The notes: generated by a model not told the origin, from the letters alone. 64,000 nt of DNA from Bryobacterales bacterium (GCA_965226185.1 CBDDCT010000007.1:173625-237624), one strand, 5' to 3'. Counted from the first letter of the stretch, positions 31,289 to 59,259 are shown. Program-made: numbers and translations.

Positions 31289-32713
31289 ATGACCATGGCT
31301 CTTGTTTTGGGGTTTTGTTTTGTCGTCCTGTTTTTTGCATCAACTATCTTCATCGTATCGCGATACCGACGGTGCCCGTCCAATCAGGTCCTCGTCGTGT
31401 ATGGAAAGGTCGGCGGTAAACCAGAAGACCGAATGTCAGCGAGATGCTATCACGGTGGCGCGGCGTTCGTTGTCCCTGTCTTCCAGGACTCTCAGTTTCT
31501 GGATCTAACTCCCATCCCGATTGAAATCAACCTCCAGGGCGCCCTTTCGCGCCAGAACATTCGGGTCAATACGCCTTCCACTTTTACGGTAGGTGTGTCG
31601 ACTGAACCGGGAGTGATGGAGAACGCGGCTGAGCGAATCTTGGGTCTTCCTAGAAAGGAGGTTGAAGACCTGGCCCGAGACATCATTTTCGGTCAGATGC
31701 GCGTAGTGATTGCCACGATGGATATCGAAGAGATCAACACCGATCGGGAGAAACTTATTGAGAACATCTTCAGCGGTGTGGAAGTGGAAATTAACAAGGT
31801 GGGCCTTCACCTGATCAATGTGAATGTCCACGATATTACGGATGAGTCTGAGTACATCGCAGCTCTGGGTAAAGAGGCGGCGGCGCGGGCTGTCAACGAA
31901 GCCAAGATCAAAGTGGCGGAACAGGAGCGCGATGGCGAAATTGGTAAGGCCAACGCAGACCGGGAACGCCGTATTGAGGTAGCGGCCGCCAATGCTACAG
32001 CGGTGGAAGGGGAGAACGAGGCCGGTGTAAAGGTCGCCCAATCCAATGCCGACCGTCGGAAGAAGGAAGCGGAAGCTGAGCGGCAAGCGACGGCTGCCGA
32101 GAAGGTGACGGTCGCCCAGGCCCTGCAGGAGGCATATGCGGCCGAAGAAGCCGCTGAACGCGAGCGTGCCAAGAGAGAAGAGGCCACTCAAGAAGCGAAT
32201 GTGCTTGTCACTGCTAAAATCGAGAAGAAACGAATTGAAACGTTGGCGGAGGCGGAGGCGGAAAAGATCCGGCGGCTCAAGAAAGGTGAAGCGGACGGCG
32301 TGCTTTCCATGATGGGAGCGGAAGGCTTGATGGCGATACTGACACGCAAGGCCGAAGGCTTCAGTCAGATAGTACGCGCAGCCGCGAACAATCCAGAATT
32401 GGCTTCCTTGCTGATGGTAACTGAGCAGCTGCCGAAGCTAGTGGCAGAACAAGTCAAGGCGATCTCGAACTTGAAGATTGACTCGGTAACTGTGTGGGAC
32501 TCGGGAGGCAACTCCTCGGGCAAAACTAATACGGCAGAGTTTGTCTCCGGCCTGATTGGCTCGCTCCCGCCGCTCCATGAGTTGGCCAAAAACGTGGGGA
32601 TCAAATTGCCGGAGTATCTCGGCCAAAAGGCAACTGAGAAAAAGGCGCCCGATGTCGTGGAAGAGCAGCCGCACCTGAATTATGCACTGCGGGGTGCACC
32701 GGAGGAGGGCTGA
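31289..32713 (+). CDS. flotillin-like SPFH/band-7 protein (YqiK/FloA-like). The 3' end is replaced by the IS-X terminus
   Basis: N-terminal TM helix, SPFH domain and EA-rich coiled-coil (AEQERDGEIGKANADRERRIEVAAANA...). The last 12 codons (LNYALRGAPEEG*) are encoded by the IS-X left end. Confidence 0.85.
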   Translation: MTMALVLGFCFVVLFFASTIFIVSRYRRCPSNQVLVVYGKVGGKPEDRMSARCYHGGAAFVVPVFQDSQFLDLTPIPIEINLQGALSRQNIRVNTPSTFTVGVSTEPGVMENAAERILGLPRKEVEDLARDIIFGQMRVVIATMDIEEINTDREKLIENIFSGVEVEINKVGLHLINVNVHDITDESEYIAALGKEAAARAVNEAKIKVAEQERDGEIGKANADRERRIEVAAANATAVEGENEAGVKVAQSNADRRKKEAEAERQATAAEKVTVAQALQEAYAAEEAAERERAKREEATQEANVLVTAKIEKKRIETLAEAEAEKIRRLKKGEADGVLSMMGAEGLMAILTRKAEGFSQIVRAAANNPELASLLMVTEQLPKLVAEQVKAISNLKIDSVTVWDSGGNSSGKTNTAEFVSGLIGSLPPLHELAKNVGIKLPEYLGQKATEKKAPDVVEEQPHLNYALRGAPEEG

Positions 32714-37412: not shown

Positions 37413-37507
37413 GGAAGCTAGACTTGGCCGGTGCTGGGTCCGGACTTCAAATCCGGTGTTTGCTGTTATGCAGCAAGGGTGGGTTCGACTCCCACTAGCT
37501 TCCGCCA
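37413..37507 (+). tRNA. selC: tRNA-Sec (anticodon UCA), 95 nt including CCA
   Basis: 8-bp acceptor stem GGAAGCUA/UAGCUUCC, anticodon loop cUUCAaa, long variable arm UUUGCUGUUAUGCAGCAAG, T-arm GGUGGGUUCGACUCCCAC, 3' GCCA. Confidence 0.85.
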
Positions 37508-43114: not shown

Positions 43115-43162
43115 ACGCGGCTCAGCCCTCCTCAGGTGCACCCCGCAGCGCATAATTCAGGT
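43115..43162 (-). repeat. solo IS-X terminal fragment (~47 bp, 3 mismatches)
   Basis: gcggctcagccctcctcaggtgcaccccgcagcgcataattcagg is the reverse complement of the IS-X left end (cctgaattatgcactgcggggtgcaccggaggagggctgagccgc). Confidence 0.7.
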
Positions 43163-46248: not shown

Positions 46249-46304
46249 TCCATCCTCGAACCCCAGCCGCGATCGGGCGGCTTCGAACTCCCTGAAACAT
46301 TCCA

Positions 46305-46568
46305 ATCCCTCCAGGCCGGCAGCTTTTCGAGTCTACTGGACTAAGGTGCGGACCCTTACTGGCGTTACCGTTGGCCGCGGTTTTTTCAGCCGCATTCAAA
46401 TGGAGGCGTGGCAGCGCGTGAGCGGTGCGCAAATCGTCGCTGCCTGCGATATCGACCGAAACAAGGCTGAATCTATTGCGGCCGACTTTGGGCTGCGCCC
46501 CTATAGCGACGCGGCGGCGATGATCGAGGCCGAACGGCCCGATTTCGTCGATATCGCCACGCGACCGG
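46305..46568 (+). pseudogene. duplicated 5' fragment (first ~75 codons + upstream) of the Gfo/Idh/MocA oxidoreductase gene at 58243
   Basis: About 88% identical over ~260 bp to 58205-58470 (MRTLTGVTVGRGFFSRIQMEAWQRV... vs MRILTGVTVGCGFFSRIQMEAWQRV...). Homology stops abruptly at about 46568. Confidence 0.8.
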
Positions 46569-46723
46569 GCTTTTCTTAGGGCAGTCTGGAAGCTTTCCTG
46601 TTTCATCCAGCGATAAATGGATGCTTCACTCACATTTGCTCTCTTTGCCGCTCTATCGATCGTATTCGTTAGCAAAAGAGCTTCAATGGACTTGTTCTGT
46701 TTGGTTGTAAGTTGTTCATTCAT
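46560..46723 (-). CDS. orphan HTH-domain N-terminal fragment (MNEQLTTKQNKSIEALLLTNTIDRAAKRANVSEASIYRWMKQESFQTALRKA)
   Basis: HTH-like 52 aa, lower-GC DNA. The reading frame then runs antisense into the duplicated oxidoreductase fragment, so only the N-terminal piece is likely real. Confidence 0.3.
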
Positions 46724-47133
46724 AAGGGTTGACTTTTCTCAATGAGAGTATTTGAGAGTCTGTGAGAGGTTTTCTGGCTTTTGGGTCCCGCCGGGGCCGT
46801 GGAATGGTTGTCCTCTCCTTTCTGTTGCAACTGAGTCATTGTTGGTTTTGCCGCTCTTAGGATAACAAGCCGATCTTGGGATTCCTTGCGGGCGGCGGGT
46901 AATTCTGTTGAAAACAAAGGGACTATATTTATGATTTATCCGTGACTGAGTTGGGGTGATTTGCGGTTCTGGGGGGGAGCGGTGTTTTGGGGCCAAAGTG
47001 GCGCGCCGGTAGCCGGTTCGGCCGTTGGGTGGGGCGTTCGCTGGTCAGCGACTCGTCGCCGCTTTGCGTAGGAGCCTTGAGCATCGAGAGGGAGTTAGGG
47101 CTGGACCGGGTGAGAGTCGGCCGGTACCATTTC

Positions 47134-47184
47134 GGACGCGAATGCTGGTCGGACGCGAATGCTGGTCGGACGCGAATGCTGGCA
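47134..47184. repeat. 17-bp tandem repeat x3 (ggacgcgaatgctggtc)
   Basis: Seen directly, inside a ~1.1-kb stretch (46580-47700) without a convincing ORF. Confidence 0.8.
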
Positions 47185-47701
47185 CGGCACGCTCCCAGGG
47201 TAGCCGGCCGGCGCTGCTGAAGGCGTTGAAGAGGTTTGGGGCAGCGGATTGCTGAGGAGTTGGGTTCGTTTTGGTCGTGTTTCCCTTTCGCTGCTCGGTT
47301 GGCTTTGTCCTGCGTCCATCGAAAAGTCGTAGCGTTCCCGCTTTCCCCGTCCCCATCAGCCCCGGGCGTCGGCTTAAGCCGCAGCAAGGCGGTCGGCCAC
47401 CTTCCGGTGGGGATAGTCACCGTGTTTTCGTGGCAGGCTGCAGGCGATTCCGCAAGAGTTGACAATAAAACCCGGTGACTTTCCCCATCAGCCCTAAGTT
47501 TTGATTTTTTCACACCTTCCCGTCCCCGAACTCCCAGCGCTACTTCCCCCGGACTTCCCACGTGATATACTGAAGCGCACGACCCGACCGCTCATTGCGA
47601 TCGAGCGAGTGCCTTCGAATTCGCGCTCCTACTTCCTAGTCGGGGTCCCTTGGACCTCAATCCACTTACCAGCTTCTATCGCCTGGAGGAACTGATTTTC
47701 T

Positions 47702-48572
47702 GTGGCTACTGTTGACAACGCACGGATAAAAACCGCCTTCGCTTGGCAGTACGGGTCAAAGCTGGAACAGTTGGGGCACTTACTAGCCGAAACATCGGGG
47801 CCGGTTGTAGCAATCTCACGCAAGGGTCCCCGTTTGCTTGAGTTGGCAGCTAGGGAGAATCTCATCCCCAAAGCAATTCTCGAAAGAGTCACAAGCGAAC
47901 GTGCTCTAGCACTCGACCTGTCTTCAGCCACAGGTTTAGGTTCGCTGGTTGTGTTCGACGACATCTGCATTTTCGGGTCCACTTTCCGGAGGATTGCCGA
48001 CGTAGCCACTGAAGTGTTCGGTGAATCTAGGGTCCGAGGGGCACTTTTTGCTGTAGGAAGCCAGGCAAGGGAAGAAAACATCAGGCTCGCGACTCACCGC
48101 GTATTTGGGCTGCCCGCTGATCATTTCTGTCAATTTATCAACAGCGAAATAGCCGCTTTCAATGCACTTGACAAACCGTACGATATCGACCACCCGATCT
48201 TGTACGTGGACCTTCTAAACGAGGTCACGACTGCGGCATTGGAGAAGGTCTTCCTGACGGCGGCGTCTGCTTCCGGCGGGTATCCAACGTTCCACCGATT
48301 TGCCCGAGCTGATCACGGCATCGAAGAGCGTGCGGCCTGGACGTTACTGGCAGCCGAGAAGGGAAACAGAACTGGGAAACGGCGTACGGTGTCTCTCCGC
48401 AAGGTGCGGTGCTATTACAATCGAGCCCGACAACGACTTGCGATTGTTCCAATTGCACCTGAACAAGACACATTAGAAGGTTTGGAGCTAAGAGTGGCAA
48501 GCTTGCCTTCAATCGTACAAGAGCCTTGGCGCGACTTTCGATCTGCGCTCCTTGACAGCGACAAGTATTCCA
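47702..48572 (+). pseudogene. 5' part (290 codons) of a split ~931-codon gene; N-terminal type I phosphoribosyltransferase-like domain. The current stop is supplied by IS-X
   Basis: PVVAISRKGPRLLELA...SLVVFDDICIFGSTFRRIADVA resembles the PRTase hood/PRPP-binding loop. The stop TGA at 48575-77 lies inside the IS-X left end. Confidence 0.75.
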
Positions 48573-50373
48573 CCTGAATTATGCACTGCGGGGTGCACCG
48601 GAGGAGGGCTGAGCCGCCAGGGGCCATTTGGGGGACCCCCGAAAACATGGGGTAATAAGGTAGGCTGGCAAAGATTTCAGCTTCGCCAGTCAACCCCAAG
48701 GAGGTCACCCAAATGGTTACCAAGCGAAAACAGCATAGCTCCCGAAGGCCCGTCAAACAAGGCCGGGGCGCGAGGGCCCCGCGGCCCAATAAAATCGGGG
48801 CTGCCACGCCTTATCACTTCCGCGGCAAGAATCTGACTCCCTACGGCGGCTTGCTGCCCGTCGCCACCCTGCTCGAAAAACTCGGCTTCCAGGCGCTGCT
48901 GGAAGAAACCATCACGAACAAACGAATCACCCGTGTGATGAGCCTCTACCAGTTTGTGCTGGCCCTCGTGCTGGGCCTCTATGTCGGCTTTGCGCGGCTG
49001 AACCAACTCCGCTTCATCGCCCGCGACCCCATCTTGACCGGCATCTTGCAAGTGACGCGTCTGCCGCCGCAGTCCACGCTGTGGCGCTTTCTGGCCTCGC
49101 TGCACCTCAACGTGGCGAAGCAGATCCTTTCCATTCAGCGCCAGCTGCGGGAACGAGTCTGGGCCGCGGCCCAGGTGAAATTGGAGACGGTGACGCTGGA
49201 CACCGACACCACCGTGCACACGCTCTACGGCCGCCAGATGGGCGGGCGCAAGAGTTACAACCCCAAGAACAAGGGCAAGCGCAGCTACCAGCCGATACTG
49301 ACTTTCCTGGCCGAGACGCGCGAATACCTGATGGGCGGGTTGCGCAACGGCGACCGGCCCACGGGCCGGCAGATCGCCGCCCACCTCGAGAGCGCCTTTC
49401 GGGCTTTGCCGCACGGCGTGAAGAAAATCCTGGCGCGGGCCGATTCCGGGTTTTATTGCTGGGAGGCGGTGGAGGCCTATGAAAAGGCGGCTTGTCAGTT
49501 CGTCATCGTGGCGCGCAAGACCAGGCGGCTGGTCGAGCAGTTGCAGCAAGCGGCCTGGAAGCCCTCGCCCCACAGCGATGCGGATGCGGAATGCGAATTC
49601 CTCTACCAGCCGCAGGGCTGGGCGCGGGCCTGTCGTTTCCTGGCGCTGCGTTACGAAAACGAACCCGCGGCCGGCGCGGCCGAGCAATACCAGCTGTTTG
49701 CCACCAGCGCTTACACCTACCGCGTGTTTGTCACCAACCTGGCCGAACCGATCGCGGCGGTGGTGTGGTTTTACAATCAGCGCGCCGCAGCCGAGAACCT
49801 CATCAAGGAGGCCAACAACGACGCCGGGCTGGCGGCCCATCCCTCGCGCCGCTTTGACATGAACCGCAATCACTTTCAGCTGGCCATGCTGGCCTACAAC
49901 CTCAACTGCTGGCTGCTGCTGTTCAACCGCGAAGCCCAAGCCAGCGTGGAGACACTGCGGCACACCACCCTGGCGACGGCGCGGCTGCGCTTTCTGTTCG
50001 TGGCGGCCAAGATCTGGCGGCACGCCGGCAGAACGGGTGTCAGCTACAGCGATCATTATGAGGAAAAGGGCCTGTTTGAACGGCTGATGCGGCGGCTGCG
50101 GGCGATGGGGCCACCGGGATCGAGCTTCGCGCCGGTGGTGGAGGGTGCGCTGAGTTGAGGGGCGCTCCATGCATAAAATTTCATGCACTCGCCGCAACGT
50201 ACTGGGAACACGCCGCTTGCCCGCCCGCTTTTGCCCGCCGGGATTGGCAGGCGGCTCAAACAGGGAGGGAAACAGAGGAAAAGACGACTTGCTAAATCAC
50301 TGAGTTGACACGACTGCCGCTACCGCCACAACTCCATCGGCGATGGCTACGCCGAATCGGTGCATAATTCAGG
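48573..50373 (+). mobile_element. IS-X copy 2 (identical to copy 1), 5-bp TSD TTCCA
   Basis: Direct repeat ttcca at 48568-72 and 50374-78. Transposase ORF 48713..50158 is identical to 32814..34259. Confidence 0.9.
48713..50158 (+). CDS. IS1380-family DDE transposase (IS-X), identical second copy
   Basis: 481 aa, identical to ORF 32814..34259. Confidence 0.85.
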   Translation: MVTKRKQHSSRRPVKQGRGARAPRPNKIGAATPYHFRGKNLTPYGGLLPVATLLEKLGFQALLEETITNKRITRVMSLYQFVLALVLGLYVGFARLNQLRFIARDPILTGILQVTRLPPQSTLWRFLASLHLNVAKQILSIQRQLRERVWAAAQVKLETVTLDTDTTVHTLYGRQMGGRKSYNPKNKGKRSYQPILTFLAETREYLMGGLRNGDRPTGRQIAAHLESAFRALPHGVKKILARADSGFYCWEAVEAYEKAACQFVIVARKTRRLVEQLQQAAWKPSPHSDADAECEFLYQPQGWARACRFLALRYENEPAAGAAEQYQLFATSAYTYRVFVTNLAEPIAAVVWFYNQRAAAENLIKEANNDAGLAAHPSRRFDMNRNHFQLAMLAYNLNCWLLLFNREAQASVETLRHTTLATARLRFLFVAAKIWRHAGRTGVSYSDHYEEKGLFERLMRRLRAMGPPGSSFAPVVEGALS

Positions 50374-50539
50374 TTCCAACAAATTTTCGAAACTCCGGAA
50401 CCGTTCTGTCGCAACTTGGACCAACTACCTGCTTGAACTATGTGCACTCAGAGCCGAGGTCGACCGTCTTCGGCGCACTCTTGCGGTCGCCGGTCTTGCC
50501 CCTCGCTCCGCCAAAGTCGTCATTGATCGGTTTGATTTA
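50374..50539 (+). pseudogene. middle 54 codons of the split gene (between IS-X copy 2 and MITE M1)
   Basis: In frame with both flanks after excision: NKFSKLRNRSVATWTNYLLELCALRAEVDRLRRTLAVAGLAPRSAKVVIDRFDL. Confidence 0.7.
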
Positions 50540-51069
50540 CCTGAATTATGCACAGATTCACTTTGCGAGTGTGGCTGCGTTCGTAGCGGGTTGGCGGTCG
50601 TCGTGAGGTGGTAGCTCGGCAACTGGTCTTTTGGCTTCTCCGTCCCCGGTTTCCCTTCCCGCCCAGATTCCGCGTCGTCAAAACCTCGCTCGGAAGTGAC
50701 GTGTTTCCAGTGCGTTACGGCTAGTGCATAAAATTTTATGCATAGCGCATAGCCAGGCTCTCAGATCAGCGCCCTCCCGACCACCGGCAGAAAGCCGCCG
50801 TAGGGAGTCGGCTTCTTGCCGCGGAAGTGGTAAGGCGTCGAAGCCCCGATTTTATTGGGTCGCGAGGCCGTCACGGCTGGGCCTTGTTGGACGGGCCTTT
50901 GGGAGCTATGCTGTTTTCGTCTGGTAACCATGTGGGTGACCTCCTTGGGGTTGGCTGGCGAAGCTGGGATCTTTGCCAGCCTACCTTTTTACCCCATGTT
51001 TTCGGGGGTTCCCAATGGTCCCTTGCGGCTCAGCCCTCCTCAGGTCCACGCCGCAGTGCATAATTCAGG
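50540..51069 (-). mobile_element. IS-X-derived MITE (M1, ~530 bp): both IS-X ends plus the first ~57 transposase codons, internal deletion; 4-bp TSD TTTA
   Basis: Ends cctgaattatgcac / gtgcataattcagg. Internal sequence about 90% identical to the IS-X termini. ttta at 50536-39 and 51070-73. Confidence 0.85.
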
Positions 51070-52837
51070 TTTACAGCTACTTGTGGGATCGGACCTCGCA
51101 ACCAAACTGAAGCCAAACCTTGAGTCGTACCTAAACACCGGGGAGGCACACGTTGCCGTGACGATTCCACAGCGAACAAAAACTCCCGTCGTCAGACCCC
51201 AAATCCCTCAAAAATATGAGAAGAAATACAACGCGGCCCTGAAACACCTTGTTCGGAACTCCACGGACACTGAAGAAGTACTAGCGACAATATTTAAGGC
51301 GCAACACGTCGGCATTGAGCTGCCGAGCCGGGAAGTTGATCCTGCCGGAGATCGACTCGAGTTTGGCGTGCCACTCTCATATCTCCGGCGAGCTGTCGAA
51401 AGGCAGCTCGGAGAAGTCAGCGGCCCTGACCTACACAGGGCTTTGGACTCCCTCATCGATTGGGGGGTCATAGTGCCTCGGTACCTCTCACAGGACGTCG
51501 ATGGAAACGGAGTCTGGTACCGGAGCTTTCGCGTGGGTGAAGGCCAGGCAATGGTGCCAGCGCATATCACCAAGGAGTGCTTCAACATACTAAGCAAGGT
51601 CATCGGTGACGACGCTCTACCAGAACTCCTGACTGAGAAGTTCTTCGTTCTGGCATGCCATCTTGCCAACGTGTTCGACGATCCGGCCTTCGTTTCTGCC
51701 CCCAAGATCAAGCGCGGTTTCCACCTCTACGGGGCGAGACCACGCGTAACGGTGGGTGGAAAGAGTTTCTGGCTGGTCGACTGGGCATGTCAGAAGCGCA
51801 TCCTAGAGCGCCACAAACGCGCTAAGAAGCCCCACTATAAACTTCATAGCAGCACAAGGACGTACTTCCCGAGCGATGAAAATCCTTTGAGCCATTCTAT
51901 GCGTCTAACTATACCGGCATTGGCTCGATGGACAAAGGAGGCACTGGAGACAAAGCGCCTTGGCTCCAAGTTTTTGGTCGCCGTTACTACAGTTGAGTCA
52001 CCTTGGGCATATAAGCAGGCACTCGAAGCTGAACTTCGAGGTTGGGCGCATCACGAAGAGTGGGGCGTAATCGCAGCTGTACATTCATTGGACGACCTTG
52101 TGGAACAAGCGGATGACGCAAGTCTTCACCGGGCCGGCATTATATTGGCTGGGCTTGCTAATTGGATAGCGCAAGCTGAGGTAAAGGATGAACTGAGAGC
52201 CGGCTTCGAAGAATTTATTGCGCGTGCGAATGGACGTTGGCCAGACACGTCATTCGACGATACTGCTTCTACATGGCGCGAGTTGATCCGGAAGTCACTT
52301 GAAGAGCGCGGCGACGAGCGAGCAAGACCGGCACATGTGGTAGAGGAGCTTGTTAAGCCTACAATCACTGTAGCAGGCCGCCTTACTAGCTTGTTGCGTA
52401 ACATTCTTTCTGAGTTCGCCGAGTCGCACCTTGAGTGTGCGCAGCCCGCTCTCTTTCGCGAGTCAAAAGACGAGAGAGCAAAGCCAGTATCCGAGTCTTC
52501 CGAGGAACTGACCAGATCGATTGAGGAATTACCGATTCAGATTCGTTCGCAGTTCTCTGGCGCCATCGGCCACCTTGGGGGAGTTGCGCGGGCTCGAACT
52601 CTCCAGTCTGCCGTTGAAAGCGTCCGCCCGATGGCACTTGTCATAGCTCGGGGCGTAGATGAAGTTCTGAATTGTCATCCTGATATTTCGGATGAGCCTT
52701 TGGACCCACTTGAGTCTGGGTTATACGTATTGTTCTGGGATGTGCGTAAGTCCACTCAGAACAAAACAAGAGAACCACTAACCCGGATTTCTCATCGCGG
52801 GGTTGGCGGAAGGCCGCCTTTTGTGGCACAAACATAA
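51070..52837 (+). pseudogene. 3' part (~588 codons) of the split gene; no recognisable domain. The 3' end lies ~40 bp from another IS1380-like transposase gene
   Basis: Residues 73-660 of track ORF 50855..52837. The first 72 residues of that ORF are MITE-derived antisense read-through. Confidence 0.7.
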
Positions 52838-52879
52838 TGATTACAATATGTTTCAGCCAGCAAGAAAGCGACCCCTGCC

Positions 52880-54295
52880 ATGACAGAGTGTACCCAAACC
52901 AGCTTCACCTTCGCCGACCATGGCCGCCGCCAGGTGGTAGCCTGTTTCGACGGCGGCATGATCACCTCCGACGGCGGCGCCATGCTGTTGCGCCAGACCG
53001 AACAGCGCAGCGGCATCGTGCGGCAGTTCGCCGCCTGCTTCCGTGATCACCGCCAGCCCGCGCAAGTCGAACACAGCGTGCGCGAGCTGGTCTCGCAGCG
53101 CGTCTACGGGCTGGCGCTGGGTTATGAGGACCTCAACGATCACGATCAGCTGCGCTCCGACCCGCTGCTGGCCCTGCTGAGCGGCAAACAAGACCTCGAA
53201 GGCAAGCAGCGCCGCCGAGCCCAAGACCGCGGCAAGGCGGGCGCCGGCAAGAGCACTCTCAACCGCCTGGAGTTGACCCCGGCCAAGGCCGGCGCGCAAA
53301 GCCGTTACAAGAAGATCGTTCTCGACACGGGCGCGGCCGACCGTCTGCTGACCTCGCTCTACATTCAATCGCAGCCGTGCCAGCCCGAGCGCATCGTGCT
53401 CGATCTCGACGCCACCGACGACGCGCTGCACGGCCGCCAAGAGGGGCGCTTTTTTCACGGCTACTACGGACACTATTGCTACCTGCCGCTCTACATTTTC
53501 GCCGGGGACCAGTTGCTGTGCGCGCGCCTGCGGCCGTCCAACATCGACGCCTCGGCGGGGTCGCTCGAAGAGGTCCGGCGCATCGTCGAACAACTGCGGC
53601 GGGTGTGGCCCGAGGTCGAGATCCTGCTGCGGGCCGACAGCGGTTTTTGCCGCGACGAGATCATGAGCTGGTGCGAGAACCAGGGCGTGGATTACGTGTT
53701 CGGACTGGCGAAAAACGAGCGTTTAGAGCGCCTGATCAAGAGACGGATGAAGCTGGCGCGGCGGCGTTTCGCCAAGAGGGGCAAGGCGGCCCGGGCGTTC
53801 GGGGATTTCCGCTACCGCACGCGAACCAGCTGGGCGCGGGGGCGCAGGGTGGTGGCCAAGGCGGAGTATCTGGCGAAGGGCGAAAACCCGCGTTTCGTGG
53901 TGACGTCGCTGACGCCCAAGCAAGCGGCGGCGCAACACTTATACGAGACGATCTACTGCGCCCGCGGAGAGATGGAGAACCGCATCAAGGAGCAGCAGCT
54001 GGGGCTGTTCGCCGACCGCACCTCGACCGCGCTATTGCGGTCGAATCAGATCCGCTTATATTTTTCATCGATCGGGTACTGTTTGCTGGAGACGCTGCGG
54101 CGGCTGGGGTTGGCGGGGACGAAGATGGCGCGGGCGCAATGCACGACGATCCGGCTGCGGTTGTTGAAGATCGGAGCGCGCATCCGGATCACGGCGCGCA
54201 AAGTGTGGATTTCGCTGGCGACGGGATACGCCTGGGCGGGGGTGTTCGCCCAAGCGTATGAGAATCTCGAACGGGGGGAGCCGCGGCGCTGCTGA
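52880..54295 (+). CDS. IS1380-family DDE transposase (third type)
   Basis: FHGYYGHYCYLPLYIFAGDQLLCARLRPSNIDASAG, LRADSGFCRDEIMSWCE and CARGEMENRIKEQQLGLFADRTS blocks parallel ORF 29127. Confidence 0.8.
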   Translation: MTECTQTSFTFADHGRRQVVACFDGGMITSDGGAMLLRQTEQRSGIVRQFAACFRDHRQPAQVEHSVRELVSQRVYGLALGYEDLNDHDQLRSDPLLALLSGKQDLEGKQRRRAQDRGKAGAGKSTLNRLELTPAKAGAQSRYKKIVLDTGAADRLLTSLYIQSQPCQPERIVLDLDATDDALHGRQEGRFFHGYYGHYCYLPLYIFAGDQLLCARLRPSNIDASAGSLEEVRRIVEQLRRVWPEVEILLRADSGFCRDEIMSWCENQGVDYVFGLAKNERLERLIKRRMKLARRRFAKRGKAARAFGDFRYRTRTSWARGRRVVAKAEYLAKGENPRFVVTSLTPKQAAAQHLYETIYCARGEMENRIKEQQLGLFADRTSTALLRSNQIRLYFSSIGYCLLETLRRLGLAGTKMARAQCTTIRLRLLKIGARIRITARKVWISLATGYAWAGVFAQAYENLERGEPRRC

Positions 54296-54708
54296 AAACG
54301 GCAAGGCGAGTTCAAGTAATACTTGAAGCACACAGGGCTCGACAGGGGCGGCAATCGAGGTTTGCCCAAAAACAGACGAAAAACGCCTCGGCCAGGGTCG
54401 CGGACAGCATGCCGGGCCGTTTCTGCCCCACGGCGGCCCCGCCGAGAGGCGATGCCGCCTCAAGACCATGAAATCCCATCCCGCGCGCCCCGCCAACCCC
54501 GTTTTCGGGAATCGATGAGAAATGCGGGCTAACACGTCGGATCCAGGAGGTAAACTCGTCCGTCTACAGGGCGTTCGGGGAACCACTTCTAGAGTTCGAC
54601 CACGAATCAAAAGATGATGGTAATGTTGCCATTTGCGACAGTTTTGAGACAGTAATCGGCGTTGCGAAAATTGTTGCAAACGGTTTCGCAACAGAGTACT
54701 GCGTCAAG

Positions 54709-55059
54709 ATGGGGTGCGATACGAATGCAGACGGCACACTGACCCGTGGGCGTTCTAGCAGTCGACTGGCTGGCCGAGCTTTCGAGTACGCGGCCAGAAT
54801 GATGTCATTCTACGGTGAAATCCACAAGGATGCTGGTGCGTGGACCTCAGACGATAGTAGGGATCACAACGGGGTCCACGGTCGTCCCGAAGACCCACAG
54901 GATGGCACATCATATCTGGTACTTTCAGAGCAGGCGTACCGATTGGCTGAAGAACAGACTAACGCAGGGCTGACTGAATTCACAAGGCTGTCCGGCTGGT
55001 ACAAACCGCGGGTTTTTGGGGCCTATAAACGACGGGTCTACGTTCGACAAATGGCTTAG
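54709..55059 (+). CDS. hypothetical protein (116 aa)
   Basis: ORF only. Confidence 0.3.
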   Translation: MGCDTNADGTLTRGRSSSRLAGRAFEYAARMMSFYGEIHKDAGAWTSDDSRDHNGVHGRPEDPQDGTSYLVLSEQAYRLAEEQTNAGLTEFTRLSGWYKPRVFGAYKRRVYVRQMA

Positions 55060-55145
55060 AAAGTCTAAGAGATTAAGAGATGAGGGACAGCCACCGGGGG
55101 AGATGAGGTCGCGGTAGGGATGCCGGTCGCCCGGCACCCCCCGCA

Positions 55146-55184
55146 CAGATCCGTACGTGAGCGTTGACTCATACGGCTCTTACC
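55146..55184 (-). ncRNA. candidate group II intron domain V (catalytic AGC triad), probably an ORF-less intron or 3' fragment
   Basis: Minus strand reads GAGCCGUAUG-AGUCAACGCU-CACGUACGG-AUCU. The two stem halves are identical to the canonical DV (GAGCCGUAUG...CACGUACGGUUC) at 19/19 positions. Confidence 0.45.
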
Positions 55185-55838
55185 TCGGATAGTGGCGTCA
55201 GCGCAAGCCCGACAACAGCTTCCGCTCCGCACGCCGTCCAGCGCTTGGGGCACGGCCTGTCCGCCTCTGTGTGCGGTCCGTGGCGCACCCGACGACGTTC
55301 TCCTCGGTCCCGGCCCTTCCCTCCAGATCCTCCGCCGACGGTTGCCCGTCCTTGTTCGGACTCTTCGCGGGTACTACGGCCCGGTCCGACTCCTCGGTGG
55401 CGTACGCGTGGGGCGTGCGGCTGTCGCCTTCCCCCACCGGCCTGCCACTTCGCGGCAGGCGCCTCCGAGGTCTCGCGGTTCTCGCGCGAGGAGTTTCCTG
55501 ACGTGCACGGGGTCCCCGACCGCGCCGGGTCCGACCGCCGCTTGCGATAGCGCGGCGGTTGATGTTGCCTTCCCCTTCTATCGATAGGGTCGGCACCCGA
55601 AACTAGGTATTTCGCGGCTCGATAGGCGGCCCGCCAGTGCCTTTGTCAACGCTTCACCCGCGATGTCGCCACCGCCGGCGCATGACTCGAGGTCAGCGTG
55701 CGAGTGACCTTTTGAGCGAAATGGCGAGCAGGTACCTGCAATCGGAGTGAGATCGGGCAGCATACGATAACCGGTCCGGGTATGGCGTCCTATGGCTGCA
55801 CTTATTGACTTGACGGGAATGAGAGGGCGGGGAAAGAA

Positions 55839-56516
55839 ATGAGATCGCGTCAACGGCCGGTGCTGATCCGCTCTCTTTTGCTGCTAGCGCTTCTGGGGGT
55901 GCATGGGTGTCCGTCGCCGCGGAGCGGCTCCGCGTGGGACGGGATACGTGCGCGGCGTCAAGCAGCGCTCGCCGACTACATGGAGACTCACCGGAAAAGC
56001 TGGCAGTGGTTTGCCGACGCACCCCTCGGAGATTTCGGCGTGCCTTGGCTGATGCTGAAGGTCATGCCGCTGGTGGCCGAGGACATCTGGGGTGATGGCT
56101 CGGACGGCATGCAGCGTTTCGGGCTGTTCGCCGACTCGAGGCAAGGCGCCGGCTGGCCGGCTCCTCGAGGTATCGGGTGGACCGGCCTTTTCCCCCGGGA
56201 GAACCAGCCGCTGCGCGGACTTGATATCGCTGCCGTCACTTGTGCATCCTGCCACACTGGCCGCGTCAAAGGGGCGAATGGCGAGATTACTTACCTCGAT
56301 GGCGGCGTGAATACGACGTTCCAGCTGGTGAAGTATTGGGCGGCAATCGTTCAGACGGCGGACAAGGTCGCGGGCTCGATCTCCGATCCGGAGAAGAAGA
56401 AGGAAAGGATAGCGGCGGTTTTCGGTGAGGCCATATCGAAGGCGGCAGATGCGAAACCAAGCTTCTTCTACGGGGACGTGACCTACAAAGGACACCGGTT
56501 CGATAGCACGTGGGAC
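55839..56516 (+). pseudogene. secreted c-type cytochrome-like protein (CASCH heme motif) interrupted by MITE M2. The 3' remnant (33 codons) is at 57046..57150
   Basis: Signal peptide, DIAAVTCASCHTGRVKG. ORF track 55839..56555 ends in the MITE-coded LNYALRRGPEEG. After excision the frame continues WEKKQIELFESQKLEAAELLLNKAAMIEMMAGNL*. Confidence 0.75.
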
Positions 56517-57045
56517 CTGAATTATGCACTGCGGCGTGGACCTGAGGAGGGCTGAGCCGCAAGGGACCATTGGGAACCCCCGAAAACATGGGGTAAAAAG
56601 GTAGGCTGGCAAAGATCCCAGCTTCGCCAGCCAACCCCAAGGAGGTCACCCACATGGTTACCAGACGAAAACAGCATAGCTCCCAAAGGCCCGTCCAACA
56701 AGGCCCAGCCGTGACGGCCTCGCGGCCCAATAAAATCGGGGCTTCGACGCCTTACCACTTCCGCGGCAGGAAGCCGACTCCCTACGGCGGCTTGCTGCCG
56801 GTGGTCGGGAGGGCGCTGATCTGAGAGCCTGGCTATGCGCTATGCATAAAATTTTATGCACTAGCCGTAACACACTGGAAACACGTCACTTCCGAGCGAG
56901 GTTTTGACGACGCGGATTCTGGGCGGGAAGGGAAACCGGACACGGAGAAGTCAAAAGGCCAGTTGCCGAGCTACCACCTCACGACGACCGCCAACCCGCT
57001 ACGAACGCAGCCACACTCGCAAAGTGAATCTGTGCATAATTCAGG
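56517..57045 (+). mobile_element. IS-X-derived MITE (M2, ~529 bp), 5-bp TSD TGGGA
   Basis: Same structure as M1 in the opposite orientation. tggga at 56512-16 and 57046-50. Confidence 0.85.
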
Positions 57046-57779
57046 TGGGAGAAAAAGCAAATCGAGCTGTTCGAGTCACAAAAGCTCGAAGCCGCGGAAC
57101 TGCTGCTGAACAAAGCGGCAATGATCGAAATGATGGCGGGGAATTTGTAAGAGGCTAACTATCAGGATATCTATCCCGACAAGGCTGATTTCCTGAAAGG
57201 GCCGCCCGGACAGGGCGACGCTACCGGAATTCCGGCCGCGGCGAATCTGCCGAAAGGACAAAAGGCAGCGGCGGCTCGAGGACAGAAAGCGCCGACGGCG
57301 AGTGAGGCGAAAAAAGCTGGACTGCAGCCCCCGCGGGCGTCAATGACAGACTTCATGAGCGTTTGGCGGCAGGACTTGCGCCAGCCTGAGTGGGACGCTG
57401 AGGGCAAGGCGCTGGTCCACGGCGGCCATGCCACGCCTCACGACGTTCTTTTCTTGCAGGACCCTTTCATTCCCGACAACATGCCGGTTTATCCCGGCCC
57501 TCCTGGTGGTAACAAGCGTTCCGTTCAATTATCCGGCTCAGTCCTTGCTAACTCATTGGACGGGGCGGTGTTCAGCTCTCAATGCGACCCGGAGGAGTGT
57601 CTCTGACGGCGGATAGGCGGTGAGAAAGGTGTCGTAGGGTCGGGAACTGGCGCGGTGGCCCGTCAGGACGCTGGCTTGGCTGTATCCGGGGTTTCCCCCT
57701 GCGTGCCCGTTGAGCCCTGTCCGTGGCTCCGTTTCCAGCTCCCGCCACCTCGCACGTAGCGTGCGAATTTCCCGCACAA

Positions 57780-58069: not shown

Positions 58070-58242
58070 GAACCTCAGAAACTCCTGCTGCCGGTGGCGT
58101 TCGGAGAGCGAAAGTTTTCAAGGGGAAGCCCTACCCACAGGCTACGACAGACCCGGTAAGTTGTTCATTTATTTATTGGAAACTACACTGGAATATTCAA
58201 ATCCCTACAGGGCAGGGAGCTTTTCGAGTTTAATGGACTAAG

Positions 58243-59259
58243 GTGCGGATCCTTACCGGCGTTACCGTTGGCTGCGGTTTTTTCAGCCGCATTCAAATGG
58301 AGGCGTGGCAGCGCGTGGACCGCGCGCGAATCGCCGCGGCTTGCGATATCGACCGAAACAAAGCTGAATCTTTCGCGGCCGACTTTGGGCTGCGTCCCTA
58401 TAGCGACGCGGCGACGATGATCGAGGCCGAACGGCCCGACTTCGTCGATATCGCCACGCGCCCGTCGACTCATCCGGCCCTTGTCGAACTGGCCGCGGGC
58501 CAGGGAACCGATCTCCTGCTCCAGAAACCCATGGCGGAGACCTGGGCGCAGGCGCGCCGGATCGCAAACACCGCCAAGAAAGCCGGGCCGCGGCTCATGA
58601 TAAACGAGAACTGGCGCTGGCAAGCATGGTACCGAACGATCGCCGGGCTGATCCGCGCGGGCCGCATCGGCAAGCCGTTCTTCTATCGAATGGAGGTCCG
58701 CAATCGGGACGGTGTCGGCGATCAGCCGTTCCCCAATCAGCCCTACTTCGCCGGGATGCCCCGGTTTCTGCTGATGGAAACTCTGGTCCATCATCTCGAC
58801 ACGGCGCGCTATTTGATGGGTGACATCGAAGAAGTCTATTGCCGAACCGCCAAGCTGAACGCCGTCATCGCGGGCGAGGATCTCGCCATGATCTCCGTTC
58901 GGCACGCCAATGGCGTGCTCGGAATTATCGATGGCAACCGCATGACGAAGCCAGACGAAGCGGGAGAAGTCATGGGAAGCTCGCGCTTCGAGGGATCTGA
59001 AGCGACGATTCAACTGCGCGGCGGCGGTGACGTCTGGCTGGCTGGCGAGCAAGTCTTTTCGGGACGAGGCCTGACCGGATACAAGGGCGATAGCTGCCGC
59101 GCCACGCAGCAGCATTTCATCGACTGCCTTCTCTCGGAAGCGGAATTCGAGACGGAGGGCGCCAGTTACCTTAACACGACCGTAGCCGCTGTCGAGGCGT
59201 GCTATCGCTCGGCCGCCGAGAATCGCCCCGTCTCCATTGAAGAGATTATTTCCGCTTAG
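58243..59259 (+). CDS. Gfo/Idh/MocA family oxidoreductase
   Basis: 338 aa with an N-terminal Rossmann region (GCGFFSRIQMEAW...CDIDRNKAESFAADFGL) and a C-terminal alpha/beta domain. Confidence 0.8.
   Translation: MRILTGVTVGCGFFSRIQMEAWQRVDRARIAAACDIDRNKAESFAADFGLRPYSDAATMIEAERPDFVDIATRPSTHPALVELAAGQGTDLLLQKPMAETWAQARRIANTAKKAGPRLMINENWRWQAWYRTIAGLIRAGRIGKPFFYRMEVRNRDGVGDQPFPNQPYFAGMPRFLLMETLVHHLDTARYLMGDIEEVYCRTAKLNAVIAGEDLAMISVRHANGVLGIIDGNRMTKPDEAGEVMGSSRFEGSEATIQLRGGGDVWLAGEQVFSGRGLTGYKGDSCRATQQHFIDCLLSEAEFETEGASYLNTTVAAVEACYRSAAENRPVSIEEIISA

What the first reader, a model, noticed from the sequence alone, without database searches (positions are those of the whole stretch)
47702..52837. 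A ~931-codon gene with an N-terminal phosphoribosyltransferase-like domain is split into three pieces by an IS-X copy and an IS-X MITE
ORF 47702..48577 ends with a stop that lies inside the IS-X left end. Removing IS-X copy 2 (48573..50373) plus one copy of its 5-bp TSD TTCCA continues the frame through the 166-bp spacer (...DKYS-NKFSKLRNRSVATWTNYLLELCALRAEVDRLRRTLAVAGLAPRSAKVVIDRFDL). Removing MITE M1 (50540..51069) plus its TSD TTTA joins this exactly to residue 73 of ORF 50855..52837 (L-QLLVGSDLATKLKPNLESYLNTG...). This gives one 290+54+587-codon ORF. The N-terminus carries a type I PRTase PRPP-loop (VVFDDICIFGSTF) and hood-like segment. The remaining ~700 aa have no recognisable domain, and the 3' end sits next to yet another IS1380-like element, so it may be truncated a third time. 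PRTase domains fused to large uncharacterised C-terminal regions have been reported in bacterial conflict systems; the function here is unknown.
Basis: partly seen in the sequence, partly recalled or inferred. Interest (0 to 1): 0.75.

Follow-up and report, generated by a model that had tools for sequence, protein, structure and literature searches.

The report
Transposon-shattered PRTase–cyclase fusion gene
A foreign 1,088-codon gene, whose protein joins a phosphoribosyltransferase-like head to a nucleotide-cyclase tail, has been cut into four pieces by three separate jumping-gene insertions; its intact relatives look like an undescribed modular family of microbial immune proteins.

The parts
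47685..47689 (+). GGAGG Shine-Dalgarno-like motif, 12 nt upstream of the GTG start
   Evidence: Read directly from the sequence. An in-frame stop lies immediately upstream of the GTG.
47702..48572 (+). Gene piece 1: codons 1-290 plus 1 nt. Holds the PRTase-like domain (aa 1-165 = 47702-48196; PRPP loop D86-T94 = 47957-47983), an alpha/beta subdomain (aa 166-255) and the start of the helical middle region
48573..50373 (+). IS-X copy 2. It is 1,801 bp and belongs to the IS1380 family (transposase 48713-50158). Terminal inverted repeats are CCTGAATTATGCAC. The 5-bp target duplication TTCCA lies at 48568-72 and 50374-78
   Evidence: Sequence. It is 1801/1801 identical to the copy at 32674-34474. 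NCBIfam NF033539 scores 250 bits against a cutoff of 180.
50379..50539 (+). Gene piece 2: the rest of codon 291 through codon 344 (...NKFSKLRNRS...VVIDRFDL)
50540..51069 (-). MITE M1, 530 bp. It is a non-autonomous deletion derivative of IS-X in inverted orientation. The target duplication TTTA lies at 50536-39 and 51070-73
   Evidence: It has the same 14-bp termini as IS-X. MITE positions 247-530 are 89.5% identical to IS-X positions 286-1, and there is no transposase ORF. It is 98.3% identical to a second copy at 56516-57045.
51074..52782 (+). Gene piece 3: codons 345-913 plus 2 nt. Holds the helical and winged-helix-like middle region and the first 29 residues of the cyclase domain (from 52694; metal-binding Asp D900 = 52739-52741)
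52783..54528 (+). Third insertion: a 1,746-bp IS1380-family element (transposase 52880-54295). Imperfect inverted repeats are CCGGATTTCTCATCG and CCCGCATTTCTCATCG. The target duplication CTAAC lies at 52778-82 and 54529-33
   Evidence: One search gives the ends, the duplication and frame restoration. NF033539 scores 392 bits against a cutoff of 180. It is the only copy in the window.
54534..55059 (+). Gene piece 4: the rest of codon 914 through codon 1088, plus the stop. This is the remainder of the class III cyclase-like domain (D942 = 54616-54618; R1002; R1073)
   Evidence: The junction gives LTRRIQEVN, matching the homologues' LTRRIxEVN in sequence and spacing.

Best explanation
What it is:
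- The locus is a recently inactivated, horizontally acquired gene for a 1,088-aa, three-part protein of an uncharacterised family.
- (i) The N-terminal domain has a type I phosphoribosyltransferase fold. It keeps the PRPP-binding loop (D86 D87 x4 G92 S93 T94) and an HGPRT-like beta-strand/RKG/helix element at the position of the pyrophosphate loop.
- (ii) The roughly 630-aa middle region consists of helical bundles and two winged-helix-like units. It has no specific structural relative.
- (iii) The C-terminal domain is a class III nucleotidyl-cyclase homology domain. Both metal-binding aspartates (D900, D942), the transition-state arginine (R1002) and a C-terminal arginine (R1073) are invariant or nearly so.

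How it was inactivated (shown):
- Three independent IS1380-family insertions cut the gene into four pieces: IS-X, a MITE derived from IS-X, and a second IS. Each has its own target-site duplication.
- In-silico excision restores a full-length ORF in which every family-invariant residue is intact.
- The gene therefore died recently and has no function in this genome now.

How intact relatives probably work (inferred):
- They are stand-alone, modular defence or abortive-infection proteins.
- The PRTase-plus-middle part (about 830 aa) is the constant core. It probably senses or is regulated by PRPP or a nucleotide, and may itself be catalytic.
- The C-terminal position is an interchangeable output module. 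It is a nucleotide cyclase in most members, including this one, and an Mrr-type nuclease or a cytidine/dCMP deaminase in others.
- On activation the cyclase would convert an NTP into a cyclic nucleotide. That would either drain the pool or produce a signal or toxic nucleotide that halts the infected cell.
For: Shown:
- Exact frame restoration at three junctions, each with a target duplication.
- Collinearity with 24 intact homologues, including conserved motifs rebuilt across junctions 2 and 3.
- The same three insertions occur in an independent assembly that is 99.98% identical.
- The IS-X copies are 100% identical, so transposition was recent.
- Both transposases score above the IS1380 cutoff.
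- The AF2 model has pLDDT 87.4 and pTM 0.77.
- A sequence profile of 28 C-terminal domains independently retrieves the Rv1900c and Ma1120 cyclases. It aligns D900 and D942 with their metal-binding aspartates and R1002 with their catalytic arginine.

Support for a defence role:
- C-terminal domain swapping occurs. P0052 is 33% identical over residues 10-827 but ends in an Mrr_cat domain (27.5 bits against a cutoff of 21). P0148 ends in a dCMP/cytidine deaminase domain (E 1e-14). Of members of at least 950 aa, 74 of 77 carry the cyclase.
- Short (~830 aa) relatives lie in a three-gene island with a tyrosine integrase, next to an LmuB-like SMC ATPase.
- There is no conserved neighbour in 11 foreign contexts.
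- In 4 of those 11, the neighbours are BrnT/A plus a NotI restriction-modification pair, a pAgo plus NACHT plus a conjugative coupling protein, a PIN_12 protein, or a PIN_3 toxin-antitoxin pair.
- The phyletic spread is patchy: Acidobacteriota, Magnetococcales, Bacteroidota, Halorubrum and Nitrososphaeria.
- GC3 is 0.545 against 0.71-0.75 for host genes.
- PRTases are established defence effectors in ShosTA, PsyrTA, type III retrons and Ophion (PMC11961720; bioRxiv 10.1101/2025.09.30.679545).
Against: - No experiment bears on any member.
- Seven of 11 foreign contexts look like housekeeping loci.
- No relative was found in PLSDB plasmids by tblastn, or in IMG/VR by pattern scan.
- This protein does not reach any Pfam, NCBIfam or PADLOC threshold.
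- The canonical cyclase asparagine is replaced (E998) and varies in the family. The substrate-specifying residues could not be identified, so product and even activity are uncertain.
- Class III cyclases are most often ordinary signalling enzymes.
- Known defence PRTases are toxins, which argues that the N-terminus rather than the C-terminus may be the killing module.
- The middle region gives only generic four-helix-bundle matches.
Confidence: 0.62

Rival explanations
1. The family and pseudogene status are as above, but the polarity is reversed. The N-terminal PRTase is the toxic effector, disrupting nucleotide metabolism as ShosT does. The C-terminal cyclase is the sensor or signal generator that controls it. 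This would be a one-polypeptide, Pycsar-like circuit in which a cyclic nucleotide made in cis or in trans switches on the PRTase.
For: - All characterised defence PRTases are effectors or toxins.
- The PRPP loop is invariant across the whole superfamily.
- Short relatives, whose only enzyme-like domain found here is the PRTase, sit beside an LmuB-like SMC ATPase in an arrangement resembling Lamassu, whose LmuA partner is the effector.
Against: - The cyclase position is filled in close relatives by an Mrr nuclease or a deaminase. These are typical effectors, not sensors.
- No cyclic-nucleotide-binding domain was detected.
- The general-base aspartate of 6-oxopurine PRTases (the D of the DTG motif) is not conserved here (read from A1).
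Confidence: 0.25
2. The protein is not an immune protein but a housekeeping signalling enzyme. It would be a class III adenylate/guanylate cyclase whose activity is tuned by a PRTase-like domain that senses PRPP or purine nucleotides. That is analogous to the PRPP-sensing PRTase-like domain of Bacillus subtilis PurR. The copy here would simply have decayed in an IS-rich region.
For: - Multidomain class III cyclases with N-terminal sensor domains are common in bacteria (general knowledge).
- Seven of 11 foreign contexts are housekeeping-like.
- No plasmid or viral homologues were found.
Against: - Replacement of the cyclase by an Mrr restriction-nuclease domain or a deaminase is hard to reconcile with a signalling role.
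- The gene shows a patchy, HGT-like distribution, foreign GC3, and different insertion sites even between two Magnetococcales MAGs.
- It lies next to toxin-antitoxin, restriction-modification, pAgo and NACHT genes in four contexts.
- De novo designed helical bundles score as high as the sensor domains, so the sensor-domain matches are generic.
Confidence: 0.17
3. The fragments are still functional as separate genes. For example, the 291-aa N-terminal PRTase piece or the 116-aa C-terminal ORF 54709..55059 could act alone, so the locus would not be a dead gene.
For: - Gene callers annotate 291-, 613- and 116-aa products in the sister assembly.
- Piece 1 contains the complete PRTase-like domain plus the alpha/beta subdomain and keeps the native start and Shine-Dalgarno motif.
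Against: - The breaks fall inside folded units. Junction 3 splits the cyclase domain between its two metal-binding aspartates, and junction 2 splits a conserved motif.
- Pieces 2-4 lack their own starts in the family frame.
- Among the 167 family proteins examined, those shorter than about 770 aa align to only part of the family profile, which points to incomplete or fragmentary sequences rather than natural split versions.
Confidence: 0.05

Closest known systems
Defence-associated PRTases: ShosT (Shosta), PsyrT, type III retron effectors (e.g. Retron-Eco11), Ophion OpnC
   Same: - Type I PRTase fold with the acidic pair and the G-x-T phosphate-binding loop.
- ShosT is the only PADLOC model touched by the family, over the PRPP-loop region (E 0.058 here, 4.5e-6 in P0112).
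- These PRTases act in phage defence by disturbing nucleotide metabolism.
   Different: - Those are small solo or two-domain toxins. They are held in check by a partner: the ShosA/PsyrA antitoxin, a reverse transcriptase with its msDNA, or rSAM/PHP proteins.
- This protein is 1,088 aa, has no conserved partner, carries a ~630-aa middle region and a second enzymatic domain, and does not reach any of their model thresholds.
Pycsar pyrimidine cyclases (PycC) and class III adenylyl/guanylyl cyclases (Rv1900c, Ma1120, soluble guanylyl cyclase)
   Same: - Both metal-binding aspartates and the catalytic arginine lie at equivalent positions.
   Different: - There is no adjacent effector with a cyclic-nucleotide-binding domain, as Pycsar requires.
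- The canonical asparagine is replaced and the specificity residues are unrecognisable.
- Pfam PF00211 and the PADLOC PycC models give no hit.
- The domain sits in a position that relatives fill with a nuclease or a deaminase.
Modular single-protein or Lamassu-type defence systems with swappable effectors (LmuA with Mrr, Cap4, Sir2 and other heads; Avs; dCTP-deaminase defence)
   Same: - A constant core with an interchangeable enzymatic end (cyclase, Mrr_cat or cytidine/dCMP deaminase).
- Short relatives are encoded next to an LmuB-like SMC ATPase on an island carrying an integrase.
   Different: - The core here is a PRTase-like domain plus helical and winged-helix-like modules, not an SMC partner-binding LmuA body or a STAND NTPase.
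- The long form has no SMC neighbour.
- No LmuA, Avs or dCTP-deaminase model matches it.
Bacillus subtilis PurR / PyrR-type regulatory PRTase-like domains (from general knowledge, not tested here)
   Different: - The domain order and size differ.
- No DNA-operator role is evident.
- The PRPP loop here keeps the full catalytic-type signature.
IS1380-family insertion sequences and their MITEs
   Same: - Both transposases score above the NF033539 cutoff.
- Element lengths are 1.75-1.80 kb.
- Ends begin with CC.
- Target duplications are 4-5 bp.
- The MITE shares its termini and 286 bp with IS-X.
   Different: Nothing unusual. These are ordinary members.

Membership tests
Type I phosphoribosyltransferase superfamily (N-terminal domain) | Five-stranded alpha/beta PRTase core fold | tested here: met
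   [not shown]
Type I phosphoribosyltransferase superfamily (N-terminal domain) | PRPP-binding loop: hydrophobic strand, two acidic residues, four residues, then G-x-T | tested here: met
   The sequence is LVVFDDICIFGST. D86, D87, G92 and T94 are invariant in 25 sequences. The DDxxxxG[ST]T pattern is present in most of the 167 relatives.
Type I phosphoribosyltransferase superfamily (N-terminal domain) | Pyrophosphate-binding loop after the first strand | tested here: inconclusive
   The conserved AISRKGPR motif lies at a strand-loop-helix position (R40, K41 and R44 are nearly invariant). It resembles the LKG loop of HGPRTs only by position; no structural superposition was available.
Type I phosphoribosyltransferase superfamily (N-terminal domain) | Pfam PF00156 gathering score | tested here: not met
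   This protein gives no hit. Distant members reach 23.8-24.7 bits against a cutoff of 26.3.
Type I phosphoribosyltransferase superfamily (N-terminal domain) | Phosphoribosyl transfer activity | not testable with these tools
   Needs biochemistry.
Class III nucleotidyl cyclase (cyclase homology domain; C-terminal domain) | Cyclase homology domain (CHD) fold | tested here: met
   [not shown]
Class III nucleotidyl cyclase (cyclase homology domain; C-terminal domain) | Two metal-binding aspartates (strand 1 FxDxxGS/T and the GD motif) | tested here: met
   D900 and D942 are invariant in 28 domains. HMMER aligns them to the FTDIVGST and GDG aspartates of Rv1900c and Ma1120.
Class III nucleotidyl cyclase (cyclase homology domain; C-terminal domain) | Transition-state Asn and Arg in the GxxVNxAAR helix | tested here: inconclusive
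   The arginine is present (R1002, conserved in at least 90%). The asparagine position is E998 and varies in the family. Rv1900c also lacks the asparagine at this position: its sequence is GVAVHIGAR in the alignment.
Class III nucleotidyl cyclase (cyclase homology domain; C-terminal domain) | Substrate-specifying residue pair (Lys/Asp for ATP, Glu/Cys for GTP) | tested here: inconclusive
   No conserved lysine lies four residues before D942; the sequence there is E-S-K-D-D. The product cannot be predicted.
Class III nucleotidyl cyclase (cyclase homology domain; C-terminal domain) | Pfam PF00211 gathering score | tested here: not met
   None of 25 members gives a hit at E <= 1.
Class III nucleotidyl cyclase (cyclase homology domain; C-terminal domain) | Head-to-tail dimer forming the active site | not tested
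   No multimer prediction was available.
Pycsar | Cyclase gene paired with an adjacent effector carrying a cyclic-nucleotide-binding domain (with TM or TIR) | tested here: not met
   There is no conserved neighbour in 11 foreign contexts. No cNMP-binding domain was found in the protein. PADLOC gives no PycC hit.
Shosta (ShosTA) | ShosT PRTase toxin with an adjacent DprA-like ShosA antitoxin | tested here: not met
   The ShosT model matches only at E 0.058, over 36 residues of the PRPP loop. No DprA-like neighbour was found in any context.
Lamassu | LmuB SMC-like ATPase encoded beside the effector protein | tested here: not met
   The window and all long-form contexts lack one. Only the ~830-aa relatives (L011) have an LmuB-like neighbour, at E 8e-7 over the N-terminal part only.
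IS1380 family (the two autonomous insertions) | IS1380 transposase, terminal inverted repeats and a 4-5 bp target duplication | tested here: met
   NF033539 scores 250 and 392 bits against a cutoff of 180.
MITE (non-autonomous derivative of IS-X) | Shares termini with the parent IS, lacks a transposase, has a target duplication and occurs in multiple copies | tested here: met
   The 14-bp termini are identical, and 286 bp are 89.5% identical to the IS-X left end. The element is 530 bp with no transposase ORF, and its duplication is TTTA. A second copy at 56516-57045 is 98.3% identical and has the duplication TGGGA.

The most novel reading that the evidence does not exclude
The PRTase-plus-middle module defines a large, unrecognised superfamily of prokaryotic immune proteins, with at least 1,099 clusters at 50% identity across bacteria and archaea. 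A phosphoribosyltransferase-fold domain would serve as the sensing or switching core, playing the role that STAND NTPases or SMC ATPases play elsewhere. It would drive interchangeable outputs. The commonest output, a class III cyclase, would make this the first stand-alone defence protein whose output is cyclic-nucleotide synthesis or NTP cyclisation, without a separate effector gene.
Probability: 0.3. Interest if true: 0.8.

Novelty: new variant of a known kind. Interest (0 to 1): 0.6.

Why it matters
**For this genome.** The locus is a clean, datable example of a costly foreign gene being hit three times by an expanding IS1380 population. It also corrects four spurious gene calls (291, 56, 613 and 116 aa) into one pseudogene.

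- It has a confident structure model and clear catalytic signatures at both ends.
- It shows the effector swapping (cyclase, Mrr nuclease, deaminase) typical of immune proteins.

**If intact members protect against phages.** They would add a new architecture to nucleotide-based immunity. They would also make testable the question of whether a PRTase fold can act as an infection sensor and whether a class III cyclase can be a terminal effector. Intact candidates for cloning are identified: P0007, P0015, P0052 and P0148.

Tried and rejected
- **Family libraries.** Pfam, NCBIfam and PADLOC scans of the 931-aa and 1,088-aa proteins and of 25 family members gave nothing above threshold. The only matches were chance-level ones such as DUF294 (E 0.013-0.016), plus the ShosT PRPP loop.
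- **Sequence profile against PDB.** The whole-protein profile gave only sub-significant PRPP-loop matches. This was resolved by structure.
- **AFDB50 fold search.** The library was not available.
- **Conserved partner gene.** None was found for the long form.
- **Homologues on plasmids and viral contigs.** PLSDB tblastn and an IMG/VR pattern scan found none.
- **GTDB species representatives.** Only 6 loci were found, all in MAGs, and the window's own genome is not among them.
- **Organism identity.** Exact-sequence look-ups returned no names.
- **Literature.** Searches for a PRTase-cyclase, PRTase-Mrr or Lamassu-PRTase architecture found no description.
- **Pycsar, Shosta and Lamassu membership.** Considered for this gene and rejected (see the membership test).
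- **Promoter and terminator scan upstream of the gene.** Nothing informative.

Full report
**1. The observation**

- IS-X copy 2 occupies 48573-50373. Its ends are CCTGAATTATGCAC...GTGCATAATTCAGG, flanked by TTCCA on both sides.
- The TGA that closes ORF 47702..48577 lies inside the IS.
- MITE M1 occupies 50540-51069 and is flanked by TTTA.
- Deleting each element with one duplication copy yields an open 931-codon frame with the quoted junction peptides.
- The 14-bp terminus occurs nine times in the window, against 0.03 expected.
- The two full IS-X copies (32674-34474 and 48573-50373) are identical at 1801/1801 positions.
- The MITE is an inverted internal-deletion derivative. Its positions 247-530 are 89.5% identical to IS-X positions 286-1.

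**2. The extension: a third insertion**

The apparent C-terminus (...LTRISHRGVGGRPPFVAQT*) is not native.
- Intact homologues read ...LTRRIxEVN... at this point and continue for about 170 more residues.
- In the window the same motif is split. CTAAC|CCGGATTTCTCATCG... lies at 52778-52797, and ...CGATGAGAAATGCGGG|CTAAC ACGTCGGATCCAG lies at 54513-54546.
- A 1,746-bp element (52783-54528) therefore sits here, with imperfect inverted repeats and a 5-bp CTAAC duplication.
- Removing it joins ...EPLT to RRIQEVN..., and the frame runs to a stop at 55057-55059.
- The complete gene is 47702-48572 + 50379-50539 + 51074-52782 + 54534-55059, which is 1,088 codons.
- Both transposases score above NCBI's IS1380 family cutoff, at 250 and 392 bits against 180.
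- An independent 7.23-Mb ENA assembly is 99.98% identical over 21.7 kb. It carries the same three insertions, annotated as separate 291-, 481-, 56-, 613-, 471- and 116-aa genes.

**3. Is it one gene elsewhere?**

Yes.
- A word-indexed search of 5.8 billion proteins returned 27 hits. Apart from the window's own fragment, the best are 1,048-1,115-aa proteins at 24-45% identity covering 92-98% of the query.
- The 25-sequence alignment is collinear from start to stop.
- Junction 2 rebuilds the conserved FD(L/I)QLLxG motif (D343 and L347 are invariant). Junction 3 rebuilds LTRRIxEVN with the family's exact spacing.
- Together with the 100%-identical IS-X copies, this indicates recent inactivation with no subsequent decay.

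**4. What the protein is**

- No Pfam, NCBIfam or PADLOC model reaches significance for it or for the 24 homologues.
- AlphaFold2 with the family alignment gives a confident model, with pLDDT 87.4 and pTM 0.77.

C-terminal domain, residues about 885-1088:
- Foldseek places it on class III adenylyl cyclases Ma1120 and Rv1900c (E 3e-4, TM 0.72-0.76).
- A profile built from 28 C-terminal domains retrieves the same cyclases by sequence alone (E 0.013). It aligns WDxRGS with FTDIVGST, DDGN with GDG, and GRAFEYAAR with GVAVHIGAR or GRNVAMAAR.
- D900 and D942 are invariant. S904, G994, R1002 and E1009 are at least 90% conserved, and R1073 is invariant in A1.
- The two-metal centre and the catalytic arginine are thus preserved. 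The canonical asparagine (E998 here) and the specificity residues are not, so the product cannot be predicted.

N-terminal domain, residues 1-165:
- Its PRPP loop is canonical in sequence and spacing (VVFDDICIFGST, with D86, D87, G92 and T94 invariant).
- A conserved AISRKGPR strand-loop-helix sits where HGPRTs have their pyrophosphate loop. This last equivalence is positional inference.
- More distant members reach Pfam Pribosyltran at E 1.6e-5 and PADLOC ShosT at E 4.5e-6.

Middle region, residues 256-882:
- It was modelled separately (pLDDT 88.2).
- Two helix-helix-hairpin units (445-498, and about 505-600) look winged-helix-like from the secondary-structure pattern only.

**5. The wider family**

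- A full HMMER profile search of 1.84 billion cluster representatives found 1,099 clusters at E <= 1e-3 and 320 at E <= 1e-30.
- Among the 167 proteins retrieved there are two length classes.
- Of those with at least 950 aa, 74 of 77 carry the cyclase domain. Of those with 770-949 aa, only 1 of 59 does. The shorter class matches only the first ~540-620 profile positions.

The three long exceptions:
- P0148 ends in a dCMP/cytidine deaminase domain (PF00383, E 1e-14). A near relative is annotated from a Nitrososphaeria MAG.
- P0052 is 33% identical to the window protein over residues 10-827 (BLASTP E 3e-112). It ends in an Mrr_cat restriction-endonuclease domain (27.5 bits against a cutoff of 21).
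- P0006 has an unassigned C-terminus.

A short member from Parabacteroides distasonis (WP_390562272.1) lies in a small island inserted between SusC/SusD loci. The island holds the 829-aa protein, a 782-aa protein whose N-terminus hits PADLOC LmuB at E 8e-7, a 343-aa protein and a tyrosine integrase.

The ~830-aa PRTase-plus-middle part is therefore a constant core. The C-terminal position is interchangeable among nucleotide- or nucleic-acid-attacking enzymes. That pattern is characteristic of defence proteins.

**6. Genomic context**

- The long form has no conserved neighbour in 11 foreign contexts.
- Four contexts contain defence or mobile genes directly alongside:
  - BrnT/BrnA upstream and a NotI endonuclease plus D12 methylase downstream.
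  - A divergent pAgo with its partner, a TraG/TrwB coupling protein and a NACHT protein.
  - A divergent PIN_12 protein.
  - A PIN_3 toxin-antitoxin pair and a DUF4351 protein.
- The other seven look like housekeeping loci, and two Magnetococcales MAGs carry the gene at different sites.
- Only six loci appeared among 185,579 GTDB species representatives, all in MAGs. None appeared in PLSDB or IMG/VR.
- In the window the gene has GC 0.536 and GC3 0.545, against GC3 0.71-0.75 for flanking host genes.
- It lies in an 11.6-kb segment bracketed by a 284-bp direct repeat (46286-46567 and 58181-58464, 89.8% identical). The repeat is a duplicated 5' end of the Gfo/Idh/MocA gene at 58243.
- This is the signature of an integrated island that carried a replacement target-gene end, although no integrase remains.

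**7. Mechanism**

- Shown: the gene structure, the three insertions, the two folds, the conserved catalytic residues, the domain swaps and the contexts.
- Inferred: intact members are stand-alone conflict proteins.
- I favour the model in which the C-terminal domain is the output, because nucleases and deaminases occupy the same position. The PRTase-plus-middle core would be the sensing or regulatory part, binding PRPP or a nucleotide.
- The reverse polarity has real support. [quoted passage not shown] Type III retrons and Ophion also use PRTases as effectors (bioRxiv 10.1101/2025.09.30.679545). This model is listed as the main rival.
- A purely housekeeping signalling-cyclase reading is less likely because of the Mrr and deaminase swaps and the HGT-like distribution.

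**8. Comparison with what is known, and novelty**

- The parts are familiar: defence PRTases, class III/Pycsar-like cyclases, swappable effectors and IS1380 elements.
- The protein fails the defining tests for Pycsar (no cNMP-binding effector partner), Shosta (no ShosA; model not matched) and Lamassu (no SMC neighbour for the long form).
- No paper in the searchable library describes the architecture.
- I therefore rate it a new variant of a known kind (a modular, nucleotide-centred defence protein) that is present here only as a fresh pseudogene.
- Interest is moderate to high for the family and low for the locus's present function.

Noticed in passing
window 55108-55711 (minus strand): A group II intron lies immediately downstream of the gene. 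Rfam RF02005 (domains 1-4) scores 148 bits at 55510-55711, and RF00029 (domains 5/6) scores 41 bits at 55108-55181. The element is only about 700 nt and has no intact reverse-transcriptase ORF. Its 3' end is about 45 nt from the gene's stop codon.
   Followed up: partly
window 46286-46567 and 58181-58464: A 284-bp direct repeat (89.8% identical) duplicates the upstream region and first ~74 codons of the Gfo/Idh/MocA gene at 58243-59259. It brackets an 11.6-kb low-GC3, IS-rich segment that contains the PRTase-cyclase gene. This looks like the two ends of an integrated island that brought a replacement 5' end for its target gene. No integrase remains.
   Followed up: partly
window 55839-57050: A second MITE copy (56516-57045, inverted relative to M1, 98.3% identical, target duplication TGGGA) interrupts another ORF. 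That ORF has a signal-peptide/lipoprotein-like start and a CxxCH haem motif, with a weak di-haem cytochrome c peroxidase match at E 3e-4. After excision the frame runs only 33 more codons, so the ORF is probably truncated again.
   Followed up: partly
window 32674-34474: IS-X copy 1 is 100% identical to copy 2 but its flanks do not match (..CCGCA | TTGCT..), so there is no target duplication. ORF 31289..32713 runs into its left end. This suggests a deletion or inter-IS recombination at that site.
   Followed up: no
window 43148-43161 (minus strand): A solitary IS-X terminus with one mismatch (CCTGAATTATGCGC) has no partner end nearby. It is possibly a further MITE or a remnant.
   Followed up: no
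window 48713-50158; protein cluster look-up: The exact IS-X transposase sequence occurs on 126 contigs, and its 90% cluster has 1,025 members, from genomes of 7-8.5 Mb. The IS is undergoing a large expansion in this lineage.
   Followed up: no
window 47132-47182: A perfect 17-bp x 3 tandem repeat (TCGGACGCGAATGCTGG) lies in the 1.1-kb non-coding stretch upstream of the gene.
   Followed up: no
window 46560-46723 (minus strand): A short HTH-like ORF start (MNEQLTTKQNKSIEALLLTNTIDRAAKRANVSEASIYRWMKQ...) sits at the left edge of the putative island. The rest of the called 183-aa ORF overlaps the duplicated Gfo/Idh/MocA fragment and is probably spurious. NCBIfam gives no match.
   Followed up: partly
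L011 8001-15225 (Parabacteroides distasonis-type contigs): Short (829-aa) relatives lacking the cyclase lie in a three-gene cassette inserted between SusC/SusD loci. The cassette holds an LmuB-like SMC ATPase (782 aa), a 343-aa protein and a tyrosine integrase. It may be an undescribed Lamassu-like system with a PRTase-bearing partner.
   Followed up: partly
[not shown]
   Followed up: no
window 37413-37507: The only tRNA gene found in the window is a tRNA-SeC (anticodon TCA).
   Followed up: no
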